A DNA stretch of 54,857 nucleotides. Origin: a virus. Below, piece by piece: positions 8,245-27,180 of the stretch (positions are counted from its first letter, which is position 1; each line of letters opens with the position of its first letter). The translations under genes were made by a program, and so were the position numbers. Below the pieces are notes generated by a model. That model worked only from the letters and a program-made list of their open reading frames with translations. It searched no databases and was not told the origin of the DNA. The stretch spans positions 1 to 54,857 of IMG/VR virus record IMGVR_UViG_3300045988_021436; one strand, given 5' to 3'.

Positions 8245-8672
8245 CGTGTTTTACCTCCATATCCGATAAATGCAATTCGTGTAGAGTTATATTTGATAAC
8301 GTTTTCATCTGCAAAATACAAGGTTGGTGTAATGTCCGGTACATAACATTTTTGAGTTACATATTTATTCAACTCCGGAATCCATGCCGTTACATTGCAA
8401 CTCTTTTCAACCTTATCAATGTATTGTTGTTCCAATTTACTGAAAAACTCTGCATAATCTTCATCTGTTTTCATAGGTGGTATCTCGAACTCTGTCTTAA
8501 TAATCGTGTTTTTTAGTGCCGTTCTATGTAACATTCCGTCTGTATCTCTGGTTGAATCTAAATCTTGACCGGAATTAAAAGGCTTATATGTGTTAGCAGA
8601 CATCCACTTAAGAGGTATCTTCCAATCTCCTACCTTTATCAGATAACCGCCATAATTACTTTTCTTTGCCAT
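8241..8672 (-). CDS. Small distal-tail-type protein (call based on position)
   Basis: 143 aa, immediately downstream of the tape measure gene and overlapping the next gene. Confidence 0.4.
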   Translation of the reverse strand: MAKKSNYGGYLIKVGDWKIPLKWMSANTYKPFNSGQDLDSTRDTDGMLHRTALKNTIIKTEFEIPPMKTDEDYAEFFSKLEQQYIDKVEKSCNVTAWIPELNKYVTQKCYVPDITPTLYFADENVIKYNSTRIAFIGYGGKTR

Positions 8673-25546: not shown

Positions 25547-26077
25547 TTATTCCACCTCTTTGTTGTGCTTACAATACACAAGCAAATGTTCCGCAATCTG
25601 CTCCAAATCTTCAATGTCATACTTTCTACATTCTATATTTCTATATTCGTATTTTTCATTTATCAGAAAATTTGCTACCTCAATTGCATCAAAAGGCAAT
25701 TCAACAGTTGAATTGTTTTCTTTTAATTCATCAGCCCCTACCACCCATAATGCACCATAATTACCTTTATCAAAGCTATCTCTTGCCGATTCTCTGCATC
25801 TCATGCGAATACTCTTTAATTTTTCTATATGTTTTTTGAGTTCTCTTATTTCATCTTTAAACACTTTATCGTGTTCCGTAAAATCAAGACTATCAAAAAC
25901 AATCCCGTAGCGTTTGCTTATTTCATCTTCTGTCATAACATCAGAATTGTACTCCGTATAATGCGCTGTAACACCGTTCAGTTTAAGAAGTTCACCTATT
26001 GATTTTGTAAAAGCAATTGCAACTTTATTGTCGTGACATTTTGCAAACTTATCAATAATCTCATCAACATTAGACAT
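25547..26077 (-). CDS. Hypothetical protein (176 aa)
   Basis: ORF with the RBS aaggggag. Confidence 0.45.
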   Translation of the reverse strand: MSNVDEIIDKFAKCHDNKVAIAFTKSIGELLKLNGVTAHYTEYNSDVMTEDEISKRYGIVFDSLDFTEHDKVFKDEIRELKKHIEKLKSIRMRCRESARDSFDKGNYGALWVVGADELKENNSTVELPFDAIEVANFLINEKYEYRNIECRKYDIEDLEQIAEHLLVYCKHNKEVE

Positions 26078-26251
26078 ATTTTTTTCTCCCCTTTCTTATT
26101 TTGCCTGTATCGGAACGATTTATATTCCGATCGTCATTACTTTGCAAACAAGCAGCTTTGCCAACCGACACAGGCATACTTGAAATGTAGATGGTTGTAA
26201 GAAATTTTGCAGATTACCAACAACTGCATTTCTTTTTTGTTACATTTCAAA

Positions 26252-26336
26252 CGCAGTGTATAGGAATCGAACCTATTCGCCCTTTCGAATGGCTACCGGT
26301 TAGCAACCGGACACATTACCTCTCTGTCAACACTGC
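26252..26336 (-). tRNA. tRNA-Ser (anticodon GCU), type II with a long variable arm
   Basis: Folded by hand. Acceptor GCAGTGT/ACACTGC, anticodon loop TTGCTAA, variable arm about 17 nt, T arm ATAGG-TTCGATT-CCTAT. Total 85 nt. No encoded CCA. Confidence 0.75.
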
Positions 26337-26694
26337 AAACGGGATTTTTATTCAGAATCCCATAACTGATATACATTTGAATTTTGGTTGGATTAACGCA
26401 CCAACCATACGGATTTTCACGTCTTTTCTGACTAAGACAGTGCTTAGATGTTGTGCAAGCCGCTATTGCCGATGCAGATTTCCTGTGGAATATAATCCAA
26501 AATTAACAGTTGCATTACACCGCCTATTGCGATTCTTTTAATTGCCTAAAGAGGGGTGACAATTTGGGTAACTACCGCAATTAAACCCGAACCCCACCGA
26601 ACCTTGCGACGGTTCTTAACAGCTTTCCGCTAGTGGGTACTTGGGAGGAGCATATGAAAAATGCCCAATCGGGTGTCGGCTAAGAACACCCGCA
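26337..26694 (-). ncRNA. ORF-free, hairpin-dense region of about 358 nt between two tRNAs: candidate structured ncRNA of unknown class
   Basis: No credible ORF on the gene strand. Perfect local stems at 26341-46/26356-61, 26386-91/26401-06, 26599-603/26611-15, 26641-45/26664-68 and 26671-76/26686-91. The region is GC-richer than its flanks. Confidence 0.5.
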
Positions 26695-26766
26695 CAGGGG
26701 TAGACGGACTCGAACCGCCAATAACAAGAATCAAAATCTTGCGCCTTACCGTTTGGCAATACCCCT
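26695..26766 (-). tRNA. tRNA-Gln (anticodon UUG)
   Basis: Folded by hand. Acceptor AGGGGTA/TACCCCT, D arm GCC-AAACGGTAA-GGC, anticodon arm CAAGA-TTTTGAT-TCTTG, T arm GGCGG-TTCGAGT-CCGTC. Total 72 nt. The layout closely parallels E. coli tRNA-Gln. Confidence 0.85.
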
Positions 26767-26772
26767 AGCTTA

Positions 26773-27180
26773 TTATGCGAATGGCAACTCGTCTTCAATT
26801 CCATCCGGAATATTCATGAAGCCATCACTTGACGGTTTACTATTTGAATTGCCGCTATCACTCTTGCTTTGTGCAAACTCTACATTTTCAGCAAATACAT
26901 CTGTTGTATAAACCTTGTTTCCGTCCTTGTTTGTATAACTTCCTGTCTGAATGTGACCGTCAAGCGCAATCATATCTCCTTTGTGGAAATACTTCTCTAC
27001 AAACTCTGCCGTCTTTCCCATTGCTACACAATTAGGGAAGTCTGCTTCATACTGACCGTTTGTCTTAAACTTTCTGTTTATCGCAAGGCTAAATCTTGCC
27101 GTACATGTATTCTTCTCATTGTTTGCATATCTAATCTCTGGATCTCTTGTAAGTCTGCCAACTAAAACAACTTTATTCAT
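26773..27180 (-). CDS. ssb: Single-stranded DNA-binding protein
   Basis: MNKVVLVGRLTRDPEIRY... OB fold with an acidic tail DGIEDELPFA. Confidence 0.9.
   Translation of the reverse strand: MNKVVLVGRLTRDPEIRYANNEKNTCTARFSLAINRKFKTNGQYEADFPNCVAMGKTAEFVEKYFHKGDMIALDGHIQTGSYTNKDGNKVYTTDVFAENVEFAQSKSDSGNSNSKPSSDGFMNIPDGIEDELPFA

What the first reader, a model, noticed from the sequence alone, without database searches (positions are those of the whole stretch)
26252..26766. tRNA-Gln, about 358 nt of ORF-free structured RNA, and tRNA-Ser downstream of ssb
Two well-formed tRNAs, Gln-UUG (26766..26695) and type II Ser-GCU (26336..26252), bracket 358 nt that has no credible ORF on the gene strand. This stretch is visibly GC-richer than its surroundings.

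It is packed with perfect local helices: GGGUGU/ACACCC, UUGGG..GCAU/AUGC..CCCAA, GAACC-GUCGCAA-GGUUC, GGUUGG/CCAACC and GGGAUU/AAUCCC. There is also a possible three-way junction, with CCCAC pairing to GUGGG around two hairpins. One of those hairpins looks like an anticodon arm, with a 7-nt loop carrying U33 and A37.

Phage T4 carries stable RNAs of unknown function inside its tRNA cluster. The large ornate GOLLD and ROOL RNAs are reported mainly in prophages, next to tRNAs. This element is shorter than those, and I cannot assign it to a known class by eye.
Basis: partly seen in the sequence, partly recalled or inferred. Interest (0 to 1): 0.75.

Follow-up and report, generated by a model that had tools for sequence, protein, structure and literature searches.

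The report
Anticodon-less tRNA-like phage array RNA
Between two phage tRNA genes lies one copy of a widespread structured RNA that is absent from Rfam and from the papers I could search; its core looks like a tRNA that has lost its anticodon arm and is preceded by a copy of the ribosome's anti-Shine-Dalgarno sequence, so it is a real RNA element whose function is still untested.

Summary
Both tRNAs are real (Gln-UUG 26695-26766, Ser-GCU 26252-26336, minus strand). The 358-nt spacer has no credible ORF and is GC-richer than its surroundings. It is not one demonstrably structured 358-nt RNA: the whole-spacer fold is barely better than shuffles (z = -1.5).

It belongs to a family found in at least 119 gut-phage contigs and a few Clostridia/Lachnospiraceae genomes. 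In 65 distinct sequences, 99.6% of cells pair and all 13 pairs change on both sides. G·U pairs place it on the tRNA strand.

It usually lies 40-70 nt after tRNA-Gln. An anti-Shine-Dalgarno-like tract (CCUCCUUUC; GCUCCUCCC here) precedes it, and N-UUU follows it, as after the CCA-less tRNAs nearby. Divergent relatives have canonical D- and T-arms, so the core is best read as a tRNA without its anticodon arm.

A pseudoknot domain (26526-26588) has weaker support. The remaining ~170 nt has none, apart from one short recurrent motif.

No Rfam family matches. The closest by topology is int-alpA; ROOL is a neighbour in related arrays, not a relative. The most likely role, inferred and not shown, is a tRNA-type RNase P/Z processing signal or tRNA mimic.

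The parts
26695..26766 (-). tRNA-Gln (anticodon UUG), no encoded CCA. It starts 6 nt after the ssb stop codon.
   Evidence: ARAGORN; Rfam RF00005, 61.6 bits. In 76 of 135 family instances a tRNA-Gln(UUG) lies 40-70 nt upstream of the junction.
26648..26692 (-). Leader with two local hairpins: GGGUGU/ACACCC at 26670-26692 and GGGCAU/AUGCUC at 26648-26666. The sequence is lineage-specific, but a hairpin at this place is the rule in the family.
   Evidence: MFE of the leader has z = -2.31. It has no sequence homologue beyond the sister contig. Other lineages have unrelated hairpins here.
26643..26651 (-). Pyrimidine tract GCUCCUCCC, the window's weaker version (6 of 9) of the family's anti-Shine-Dalgarno-like CCUCCUUUC tract. 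It ends 5 nt before the junction.
   Evidence: 18 of 27 lineages match CCUCCUUUC at 7 or more of 9 positions within 25 nt upstream of the junction, against a 0.9% background. 12 of 16 strong array-strand matches in 72 kb start 9-16 nt before the junction. None of 396 real tRNA upstream contexts has such a tract.
26593..26637 (-). Three-way junction, the conserved core. Closing stem CCCAC (26633-26637) / GUGGG (26593-26597); U (26632); hairpin 1 AGC-GGAAA-GCU (26621-26631); linker GUUAA (26616-26620); hairpin 2 GAACC-GUCGCAA-GGUUC (26599-26615); G (26598). It is followed by G-U-U-C (26589-26592).
   Evidence: Model R1 hit at 26589-26639, 72.1 bits. In alignment A3, 65 distinct sequences give 99.6% of 845 cells paired, 13 of 13 pairs changed on both sides, 0 of 500 shuffles as good, and 25-44% pairing in slid registers. 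The single-sequence MFE reproduces the junction topology, z = -2.29.
26526..26588 (-). Domain 2, a putative H-type pseudoknot. Stem a GGG (26586-26588) / CCC (26566-26568); helix b AUUGCGGU (26574-26581) / AUCGCAAU (26526-26533); a lineage-specific inserted hairpin (26540-26564); A-rich AAAAGA (26534-26539).
   Evidence: Alignment A2 has 4 lineages and 12 sequences. All cells pair, helix b has 3 pairs changed on both sides plus a GU/AU switch, and stem a's outer pair is G-C / U-A / A-U. A divergent branch keeps helix b, with the compensatory variant GUUACGG/CCGUAAC. The domain occurs in only about 11 of 53 downstream contexts.
26412..26432 (-). Short recurrent module GUCAGAAAAGAC-GUG-AAAAUC: a small hairpin followed by an A-rich tail.
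   Evidence: The pattern occurs in 36 loci (20 distinct), against about 2 expected from shuffles. Many are ROOL-bearing arrays that lack the junction.
26337..26411 (-). 3' remainder with two local hairpins (GGUUGG/CCAACC at 26385-26407; GGGAUU/AAUCCC at 26341-26361). No comparative support.
   Evidence: It matches only the sister contig. Its substitutions are not compensatory. z = -1.7.
26252..26336 (-). tRNA-Ser (anticodon GCU), type II with a long variable arm.
   Evidence: ARAGORN; Rfam RF00005, 52.5 bits.

Best explanation
SHOWN. The spacer holds one copy of a conserved structured-RNA family that I could not find in Rfam or in the searchable literature. The family lives in the tRNA/ncRNA arrays of gut Clostridia/Lachnospiraceae phages and is transcribed on the tRNA strand. 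Its invariant unit is:
[hairpin] - CCUCC(UUUC) tract - three-way junction - N-UUU - [hairpin].
Lineage-specific RNA domains follow the unit: a pseudoknot in this window, and a full ROOL RNA in one other lineage.

INFERRED, fairly well supported. The junction is a tRNA derivative that has lost its anticodon arm.
- The closing stem corresponds to the acceptor stem.
- 'UAGC' corresponds to U8-A9-G10-C11.
- Hairpin 1 corresponds to the D-arm.
- The 5-7-nt linker corresponds to the variable loop.
- Hairpin 2 corresponds to the T-arm.

INFERRED mechanism, untested. RNase P and RNase Z recognise only the acceptor/T-arm/elbow part of a tRNA. The junction could therefore act as tRNA-type punctuation in the long array transcript.
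- Cleavage at its 5' side would release an upstream 'hairpin + ...CCUCCUUUC-3'OH' fragment.
- Cleavage after the discriminator-like N would free the 5' end of the downstream structured RNA.
- The stable tRNA-like fold may also protect those ends.
For: Family and structure:
- 9 Clostridia/Lachnospiraceae-type assemblies carry it, including the isolate Lachnospira intestinalis CLA-AA-H89B.
- 13 of 13 pairs covary, 99.6% of cells pair, and the slid-register controls collapse.
- Members found independently of the motif, through protein or ROOL loci, keep all three helices with new pair types.
- G·U pairs occur on this strand only.

Context:
- All neighbouring tRNAs are on the same strand, and 76 of 135 copies lie 40-70 nt after tRNA-Gln.
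- There are no promoter- or terminator-like sites around the window's array.

tRNA ancestry:
- A divergent branch has UAGCUCAACGGAGCU and GGGGC-UUCAAAU-GUCCC.
- With a 7-bp acceptor and a grafted anticodon arm, ARAGORN calls these tRNAs, against 0 of 320 shuffled controls.
- The sixth closing pair forms in 68% of sequences, with 5 pair types. With the invariant U·G this gives an 11-12-bp stack with hairpin 2.
- Hairpin 2's loop keeps U-C-R, and every hairpin-1 loop keeps a G.

Processing:
- 95% of real tRNAs in these arrays lack CCA, and their trailers start U (89%) then U (64%).
- The junction is followed by N, U (81%), U (98%), U (76%).
- In Firmicutes, RNase Z cuts CCA-less precursors after the discriminator, and RNase P can act first on precursors with long leaders (PMC1874595).
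- A tRNA-like Y-RNA module with a 7-bp acceptor stem is cut by RNase P and receives CCA (PMC4201824).
- In one lineage ROOL's own outer helix starts 3 nt after the junction.
Against: - No transcript ends have been seen, so processing is pure inference.
- The window's copy and the main branch fail every tRNA test. Rfam's tRNA model gives no hit at E<=10. ARAGORN rejects the native and grafted forms, even with an ideal acceptor stem.
- The closing stem is only 5-6 bp, and its 5' strand is C-rich, unlike most tRNAs. The YrlA study found RNase P cleavage only for the RNA with a 7-bp acceptor stem.
- The near-invariant, non-tRNA-like linker G(A)UUAA(A) and the loops GGAAA and GUCACAA suggest a specific partner beyond generic tRNA enzymes.
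- The conserved anti-SD-like tract is not explained by processing alone, and it is absent upstream of real tRNAs.
- The covariation sets were partly pre-selected or fitted to the model.
Confidence: 0.45

Rival explanations
1. The element is a trans-acting mimic. The tract plus junction works as one small RNA that imitates ribosomal or tRNA surfaces: the 16S rRNA 3' end (anti-SD), the tRNA elbow and the acceptor stem. It could sponge Shine-Dalgarno sequences, or it could titrate a host factor or defence nuclease that recognises the 16S 3' tail or tRNA ends.
For: - The tract matches the 16S 3' terminal sequence far above background and is locked 0-7 nt from the junction.
- The tract is specific to this element and absent upstream of real tRNAs.
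- The aSD core CCUCC survives even in the most divergent branch.
- The junction's strongly conserved non-tRNA-like nucleotides suggest a dedicated partner.
- There is precedent for array RNAs touching the translation apparatus: GOLLD pulls down ribosomes, and OLE is proposed to sequester bS21 (PMC12286853).
Against: - The phage's own genes use strong SDs, for example upstream of ssb, so a generic SD sponge would hit them too.
- The hairpin before the tract does not resemble 16S helix 45; its loops are U-rich, not GGAA.
- The window's own tract is only a 6-of-9 match.
- No partner has been identified.
Confidence: 0.25
2. The junction is the 5' structural domain of one larger, unprocessed ncRNA that runs from tRNA-Gln to the next tRNA (about 358 nt here). 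The junction and pseudoknot would be folding or assembly modules, in the manner of the ornate array RNAs such as ROOL.
For: - The junction always lies 5' of further structured modules: the pseudoknot, the 'GUGAAAAUCAACC...' type, or ROOL.
- Arrays are mosaics of short conserved RNA modules.
- Hairpin 1 can carry a GNRA-type loop, which is typical of tertiary docking.
Against: - Downstream partners are interchangeable (27 sequence types).
- The distance to ROOL varies from 0 to more than 3 kb. Both points argue for an autonomous module.
- The window's 3' 170 nt lacks any conservation.
- The whole-spacer fold is not unusually stable.
Confidence: 0.15
3. The junction is a new small self-cleaving ribozyme that processes the array transcript.
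For: - It is a compact three-way junction with near-invariant junction nucleotides and one conserved loop, as in small ribozymes.
- These phages carry hammerhead ribozymes elsewhere in their genomes.
Against: - No known ribozyme family matches.
- The junction strands (1, 5-7 and 1 nt) do not fit the hammerhead core.
- The tRNA-like arms of the divergent branch give a simpler account.
- Similar highly conserved array motifs showed no self-cleavage when tested (PMC5737381).
Confidence: 0.05
4. The element is a decaying tRNA pseudogene or other functionless spacer.
For: - The junction derives from a tRNA.
- Most of the window's spacer is unconserved.
Against: - The junction is 80-93% identical across phages whose neighbouring protein is only about 35% identical.
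- All 13 pairs are maintained by compensatory change.
- The loops and linker are near-invariant.
This is purifying selection, not decay.
Confidence: 0.03
5. The signal belongs to the opposite strand. On that strand the tract reads GAAAGGAG and is often followed by ATG, so the element could be a leader or riboswitch plus a small ORF on the plus strand.
For: The mirrored tract is a textbook Firmicute ribosome-binding site, and about half of the lineages have a start codon 3-14 nt downstream of it.
Against: - The G·U pairs in the helices (dozens of cells in the two alignments) would all be A·C mismatches on that strand.
- The 'ORFs' are 1-44 aa, unrelated to each other, and absent in 13 of 27 lineages.
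- They run antisense into tRNA-Gln.
- All genes and tRNAs of these regions are on the other strand.
Confidence: 0.03

Closest known systems
int-alpA RNA (Rfam RF02996; Weinberg et al. 2017 motif of unknown function)
   Same: - It has the same three-way-junction topology: a closing stem, 'CUAG' opening a short first hairpin with a 5-nt loop, an A-rich linker, a 5-bp second hairpin, the closing strand, then a U-rich tail.
- It occurs in the same phage tRNA arrays on the same strand.
- It is the only Rfam family to give even a weak full-length alignment to a family member: L389, 10.9 bits.
   Different: - int-alpA has an 8-bp closing stem, junction strands UA / GAAAA / CU where this family has U / G(A)UUAA(A) / G, and a 9-nt second loop where this family has 7 nt.
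- It has no CU tract.
- It sits 3-5 nt after the last tRNA of an array and looks like an elaborate terminator ahead of the next gene.
- The window's element gives no int-alpA hit at E<=10, and model R1 does not hit the int-alpA copies.
tRNA-like module of bacterial Y RNAs (YrlA)
   Same: - Acceptor-, D- and T-arm mimicry without anticodon function.
- It also occurs in phages.
- The 7-bp-acceptor version is cut by RNase P and receives CCA (PMC4201824).
   Different: - YrlA is encoded next to rsr (Ro60) and carries a Ro-binding helix. The tRNA-like part is internal to a roughly 100-nt RNA.
- No Rfam Y-RNA hit appears here.
- This element sits in tRNA arrays and has the anti-SD-like tract and a shorter closing stem.
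tRNA-like processing signals: mascRNA at the MALAT1 3' end, and mitochondrial 'tRNA punctuation' (established knowledge, not tested here)
   Same: This is the proposed logic: a tRNA-shaped structure recruits RNase P or RNase Z to define the ends of neighbouring non-tRNA transcripts.
   Different: Those examples are eukaryotic or organellar, and they are cloverleaf structures that keep an anticodon arm. Processing here is only inferred.
ROOL and GOLLD RNAs
   Same: - They share the niche: prophage and phage tRNA islands, same strand, probably co-transcribed (PMC5737381; PMC12286853).
- In one lineage the junction directly abuts ROOL.
- About 31 of 100 ROOL-bearing contigs also carry the junction.
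   Different: - ROOL is about 580 nt and GOLLD is over 800 nt, and both form multimeric cages.
- The window has no ROOL or GOLLD match.
- The junction is a 45-nt autonomous module at a variable distance from ROOL.
Canonical tRNA, and T4-type stable RNAs within tRNA clusters (the latter from memory)
   Same: - Location inside a tRNA cluster.
- 'UAGC' entry into the first arm.
- A 5-bp stem with a 7-nt loop next to the 3' strand of the closing stem.
- A discriminator-plus-UU trailer.
   Different: - No anticodon arm and a short acceptor stem.
- D- and T-loops are non-canonical in the main branch.
- Neither ARAGORN nor Rfam's tRNA model recognises it.

Membership tests
tRNA (RF00005) | Cloverleaf with an anticodon stem-loop | tested here: not met
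   Only 5-7 nt, G(A)UUAA(A), lie between hairpin 1 and hairpin 2 in all 65 sequences.
tRNA (RF00005) | Score at or above Rfam gathering (29 bits), or an ARAGORN call | tested here: not met
   No tRNA hit on the junction even at E<=10. ARAGORN finds only the two flanking tRNAs.
tRNA (RF00005) | 7-bp acceptor stem | tested here: not met
   5 invariably paired positions. The sixth pair forms in 26 of 38 sequences and the seventh in 13 of 38. In the window the sixth position is A·G.
tRNA (RF00005) | Canonical D-arm and T-arm | tested here: inconclusive
   With an ideal acceptor stem and a grafted anticodon arm, ARAGORN accepts the arms of the divergent branch (L389, L402, L446). It rejects those of the window, L093, L088, L092 and L428. 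Shuffled controls gave 0 of 320.
ROOL RNA (RF03087) | Match to the roughly 574-position covariance model (gathering score 99.1 bits) | tested here: not met
   No hit in the window at gathering threshold or at E<=10. Related loci L187 and L084 score 350 and 335 bits, so the search method does detect ROOL.
GOLLD, tmRNA, group I/II introns, Y RNA, known self-cleaving ribozymes (as represented in Rfam 15) | Match to the family covariance model | tested here: not met
   Nothing above noise in 26100-26900 at E<=10. The best non-tRNA hits are 15-19 bits to unrelated eukaryotic families. For 26560-26670 the best is Intron_gpII at 11.6 bits against a gathering score of 40. ARAGORN finds no tmRNA.
int-alpA RNA (RF02996) | Score at or above gathering (35.8 bits) | tested here: not met
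   The window gives no hit at E<=10. The best family member, L389, scores 10.9 bits. True int-alpA copies in the same arrays score 38-53 bits.
int-alpA RNA (RF02996) | Three-way junction: closing stem, two hairpins, A-rich linker, U-rich tail | tested here: met
   The topology and the 'CUAG' entry are the same.
int-alpA RNA (RF02996) | Position directly after the last tRNA of an array, with an 8-bp closing stem plus U-run | tested here: not met
   The junction lies 29-139 nt (median 48) after a tRNA, behind a hairpin and the CU tract. It is followed by more RNA and further tRNAs.
YrlA / bacterial Y RNA | Encoded next to rsr (Ro60), with a Ro-binding helix | not tested
   No Rfam Y-RNA hit. The neighbouring genes are SSB, MazG, TerL and portal. 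I did not search the whole window for an rsr gene.
RNase P / RNase Z substrate (functional class) | Cleavage at the 5' base of the closing stem and after the discriminator | not testable with these tools
   Only indirect support: the N-UUU trailer matches that of CCA-less tRNAs in the same arrays, and the stem stack is 11-12 bp.

The most novel reading that the evidence does not exclude
A vestigial tRNA is kept solely as an RNase P site, so that the phage can manufacture a free mimic of the 16S rRNA 3' end: a hairpin followed by ...CCUCCUUUC-3'OH, cut out between tRNA-Gln and the junction. This small RNA would pair with Shine-Dalgarno sequences, or would decoy a host factor or defence nuclease that targets the anti-SD tail. 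That would be a new way for a phage to manipulate translation initiation.
Probability: 0.12. Interest if true: 0.85.

Novelty: new variant of a known kind. Interest (0 to 1): 0.62.

Why it matters
Phage tRNA islands are now known to hold enigmatic RNAs (ROOL, GOLLD) whose functions are open questions. This finding adds a compact, abundant, strongly covarying module to that repertoire and gives it an anatomy: a tRNA stripped of its anticodon arm, coupled to an anti-Shine-Dalgarno-like tract.

If the junction is a processing signal, it explains how non-tRNA RNAs in these arrays, including some ROOL RNAs, get defined ends. It would also show 'tRNA punctuation' operating in phages.

If the tract-plus-junction acts in trans, it would be a phage RNA aimed at the translation-initiation machinery.

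Either way it is directly testable. The element is only about 45-60 nt, and a cultured isolate (Lachnospira intestinalis CLA-AA-H89B) carries a copy. The family also deserves an Rfam entry, so that such spacers stop being left unannotated.

Tried and rejected
- **Known RNA families.** I ran Rfam at gathering and at E<=10 on the window, on the junction alone, and on relatives. Only tRNAs matched, plus ROOL, int-alpA, skipping-rope and hammerhead II elsewhere in related loci.
- **Cultured-phage relatives.** There is no GenBank phage match to the region or to the junction.
- **Prior description.** No paper holds the core sequence. The two large RNA-motif surveys could not be checked fully: one has no held supplements, and 200 of the other's 408 files were searched without a hit.
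- **Hidden or decayed gene.** ORFs overlapping the spacer have no Pfam or PHROG match. The opposite-strand 'RBS + ATG' ORFs are short, unrelated and inconsistent.
- **The tract pairing with hairpin 1's GGAAAG loop (pseudoknot or switch).** Rejected, because the tract stays CCUCCUUU when the loop changes to GAGA or AAGA. L215, whose tract is a perfect 10-nt complement of the junction, remains unexplained.
- **The tract as a generic tRNA leader.** Rejected: 0 of 396 tRNA upstream contexts have it.
- **The junction as a fixed 5' extension of ROOL.** Rejected, because the distance varies from adjacent to more than 3 kb and most copies have no ROOL nearby.
- **Hammerhead-like core.** The junction strand lengths and sequences do not fit.
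- **Resemblance of hairpin 2, hairpin 1 and the tract to 16S positions about 1494-1505, helix 45 and the aSD.** The order is reversed relative to 16S, so I treat it as coincidence. This comparison is from memory only.
- **Alternative pairing of helix b with hairpin 2's loop.** There is no consistent covariation.
- **Simple grafting of an anticodon arm.** It did not make any native copy a tRNA for ARAGORN.
Full report
**1. The observation**

ARAGORN and Rfam both call tRNA-Gln(UUG) at 26695-26766 and a type II tRNA-Ser(GCU) at 26252-26336 on the minus strand.

The 358 nt between them (26337-26694) hold only 20-62-aa ORFs on the gene strand, plus a 116-aa ORF antisense to tRNA-Ser. None matches Pfam or PHROGs. 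GC is 0.43-0.49 in the spacer against 0.30-0.40 around it.

As a whole, though, the spacer folds only marginally better than dinucleotide shuffles (z = -1.48). Thermodynamics alone would therefore not single it out.

**2. Homologues**

No deposited phage genome resembles the region. I fetched IMG/VR contigs through the flanking SSB and the downstream 176-aa ORF. These showed that only spacer positions about 56-137 are conserved.

- After structural filtering, it was also in 9 Clostridia/Lachnospiraceae-type genome assemblies, including the isolate Lachnospira intestinalis CLA-AA-H89B. The other genome hits are about what chance predicts.

**3. Structure of the core**

The consensus is: closing stem (5 bp) - U - hairpin 1 (3 bp; loop GGAAA, GGAAU, GAGA and others) - G(A)UUAA(A) - hairpin 2 (5 bp; 7-nt loop RUCRMAN) - G - closing stem - N-UUU.

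| Alignment | Sequences | Cells paired | Pairs changed on both sides |
|---|---|---|---|
| A1 (hand-checked) | 38 | 100% of 494 | 10 of 13 |
| A3 (model-based) | 65 distinct | 99.6% of 845 | 13 of 13 (158 cells) |

In A3, no shuffle out of 500 reached the observed values, and sliding the register dropped pairing to 25-44%.

The first set was pre-filtered for pairing, and the second is fitted to the model. However, members recovered independently of the motif keep all helices with new pair types: hairpin 1 AGG/CCU, AUC/GAU and GGC/GCC; hairpin 2 GGACU/AGUCC and GAGAU/AUCUC. These came from loci fetched by a protein or by a ROOL pattern.

The G·U pairs in the helices would be A·C mismatches on the other strand, so the RNA is on the tRNA strand.

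In the window the model gives a single hit, 26589-26639(-), at 72 bits. The isolated 49-mer folds into the same junction topology, z = -2.3.

**4. Context**

- 76 of 135 copies lie 40-70 nt downstream of a tRNA-Gln(UUG).
- Every nearby tRNA is on the same strand.
- The next tRNA starts 130-600 nt after the junction.
- In the window the array sits between the replication module (MazG, SSB) and the packaging module (TerL, portal), with no promoter- or terminator-like sites around it. This fits co-transcription followed by processing.

**5. The anti-SD-like tract**

Immediately 5' of the junction, 18 of 27 lineages match CCUCCUUUC at 7 or more of 9 positions, against a background of 0.9%. That this is the 3' terminal sequence of Firmicute 16S rRNA is established knowledge, not something I tested.

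- 12 of the 16 strong array-strand matches in 72 kb start 9-16 nt before the junction.
- The window's version is weaker: GCUCCUCCC at 26643-26651.
- The tract is absent upstream of real tRNAs (0 of 396 contexts).
- It does not covary with hairpin 1's loop.
- Its mirror image reads as a ribosome-binding site, but the opposite-strand ORFs are sporadic, 1-44 aa and unrelated. Together with the G·U evidence, this argues against a coding or leader reading.

**6. What follows the junction**

A U-run and a hairpin nearly always follow. Beyond that there are about 27 different sequence types.

In the window's type, four lineages support an H-type pseudoknot:
- stem a: GGG/CCC, with its outer pair G-C / U-A / A-U;
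- helix b: AUUGCGGU/AUCGCAAU, with three pairs changed on both sides;
- an unrelated hairpin inserted at the same place in each lineage;
- an A-rich strand before the 3' arm of helix b.

A deep branch keeps helix b with a further compensatory variant. This domain is 26526-26588.

The 5' 56 nt and the 3' 170 nt of the spacer match only a 97.5%-identical sister contig. That contig's nine differences avoid the leader, the junction and the helices, but none is compensatory.

One short motif in the 3' half, GUCAGAAAAGAC-N3-AAAAUC at 26412-26432, recurs in 36 loci against about 2 expected. The arrays are therefore mosaics of small modules.

**7. Relation to ROOL**

The window has no ROOL or GOLLD match.

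- In one lineage (L164/L187) the junction ends 3 nt before the outer helix of a full-length ROOL (350 bits).
- Among 100 ROOL-bearing contigs sampled independently, about 31 carry the junction. It is always on the ROOL strand, but it may be adjacent, 0.2-1.2 kb upstream or about 3 kb downstream.

The two are co-residents of the same arrays, not one RNA. The literature records the association of ROOL and GOLLD with tRNA islands, but not this element.

**8. What the junction is**

Its layout maps onto a tRNA lacking the anticodon arm.

| Junction part | tRNA equivalent |
|---|---|
| closing stem | acceptor stem |
| 'U-A-G-C' | U8-A9-G10-C11 |
| hairpin 1 (loop always contains G) | D-arm |
| 5-7-nt linker | variable loop |
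| hairpin 2 (5 bp + 7-nt loop, U-C-R fixed) | T-arm |

- The sixth closing pair forms in 68% of sequences, with five pair types. With the invariant U·G it yields an 11-12-bp stack with hairpin 2.
- The divergent branch has textbook arms: UAGCUCAACGGAGCU and GGGGC-UUCAAAU-GUCCC.
- Native and simply grafted sequences are never called tRNA by ARAGORN.
- With an ideal 7-bp acceptor stem and a grafted anticodon arm, ARAGORN accepts the divergent-branch arms (L389, L402, L446). It rejects the main-branch arms, including the window's. Shuffled controls gave 0 of 320.

I conclude that descent from a tRNA is likely. The window's copy is tRNA-like in architecture only, so it is not a member of the tRNA family.

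**9. Processing signature**

In these arrays 95% of real tRNAs lack an encoded CCA, and their trailers begin U (89%) then U (64%). The junction's closing stem is followed by N, U (81%), U (98%), U (76%).

In Firmicutes, RNase Z cleaves CCA-less precursors after the discriminator, and RNase P can act first on precursors with long leaders (PMC1874595). A tRNA-like Y-RNA module with a 7-bp acceptor stem is cleaved by RNase P and receives CCA (PMC4201824).

Neither enzyme needs the anticodon arm (established knowledge). That would explain why precisely that arm was lost.

This is the basis for my preferred mechanism: tRNA-type punctuation that defines the ends of the flanking RNAs. It remains an inference. 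The short C-rich closing stem, the non-canonical loops of the main branch and the unexplained tract all count against a purely generic processing role. They keep a trans-acting-mimic reading alive.

**10. Closest known family**

Rfam's int-alpA (RF02996) is the only family giving even a weak full-length alignment to a family member (10.9 bits against a gathering score of 35.8).

Its consensus has the same three-way-junction topology and the same 'CUAG' entry. It differs in the following ways:
- It has an 8-bp closing stem.
- It has different junction strands.
- It has a 9-nt second loop.
- It has no tract.
- It has a terminal, terminator-like position 3-5 nt after the last tRNA of an array.

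The window's element does not score against int-alpA.

I could not find the core sequence in any searchable paper. It was also not in the held supplements of a large motif survey. The IMG/VR survey of about 8,500 candidate RNAs could contain it, but its data are not held.

**11. Verdict**

This is a real RNA family that, as far as I could check, has not been catalogued. It is best classed as a new variant of the tRNA-like and int-alpA-like elements of phage tRNA arrays.

- The '358-nt structured RNA' shrinks to about 115 supported nucleotides.
- The function is inferred, not shown.

Noticed in passing
L081 2502-2587; L092 913-984; L103 1120-1191; also next to the junction in L236: ARAGORN calls tRNAs with anticodon UUA (reading the UAA stop codon) in several related phage arrays. 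This suggests ochre suppression or stop-codon recoding in some of these gut phages. The window itself has none.
   Followed up: no
L084, L161, L172, L201, L225 (just upstream of the tRNA that follows the junction RNA): Another recurrent motif, CAGGUGCUUGCAUAUCACCUAAAAUG...CAUAUGCAAU, directly precedes tRNA-Asn, -Ile, -Ser or -Tyr genes in several lineages. It is not present in the window.
   Followed up: no
window 26412-26432 (-); 36 loci including L368, L376, L378: A short hairpin-plus-A-tract module, AGUCAG(U/A)AAAGAC-N3-UAAAAUC, recurs far above chance in ROOL-bearing arrays, often about 0.7-0.9 kb upstream of ROOL and without the junction.
   Followed up: partly
L302, L228, L241, L177, L182, L225, L201, L081, L089, L411 (downstream of the junction): An alternative conserved downstream domain, 'GUGAAAAUCAACC-[hairpin]-GCCGUUAUAGGCGG', is often preceded by a hairpin with an 'AUCCCAC' loop and followed by a second CUCCUUU tract. 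It may be a variant of the window's domain 2, since both share 'AAAAUC...YAAYAGGCGG'.
   Followed up: partly
L215 (junction at 8355-8407, minus strand): Here the upstream tract is AUCAGCUUUC instead of CCUCCUUUC. This is a perfect 10-nt complement of GAAAGCUGAU inside the junction, which hints at an alternative fold in this one lineage.
   Followed up: no
L177 9386-9454; L172 9328-9396; L082 3514-3598; L225 6533-6633; int-alpA copies in L082, L089, L177, L183, L215: The same phages carry type II hammerhead ribozymes, skipping-rope RNAs and one or two int-alpA RNAs. The int-alpA copies sit 3-5 nt after the last tRNA of an array and just before the next gene's ribosome-binding site, like elaborate terminators.
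   Followed up: partly
window 25547-26077 (-): The 176-aa ORF downstream of tRNA-Ser has no Pfam or PHROG match. A roughly 35-residue central segment is 66-74% identical in more than 50 other gut-phage contigs, most of which lack the junction nearby.
   Followed up: no
L088, L089, L091 (tRNA-Asn AUU); L093, L094 (tRNA-Ser AGA); L119 (tRNA-Arg ACG); others with tRNA-Ile AAU: Many array tRNAs are called with A at anticodon position 34 (AUU, AGA, AAU, ACG). Apart from ACG this is unusual for bacteria, so these may be mis-called or atypical tRNAs.
   Followed up: no
L159, L185, L189, L202, L211, L230, L253, L267: About ten viral contigs share the 17-mer TAGCGGAAAGCTGTTAA in a different, non-pairing context (GGTAG...CTTTCATGTCGC). 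This is an unrelated conserved sequence, possibly coding, and it shows that the pattern alone is not diagnostic.
   Followed up: no
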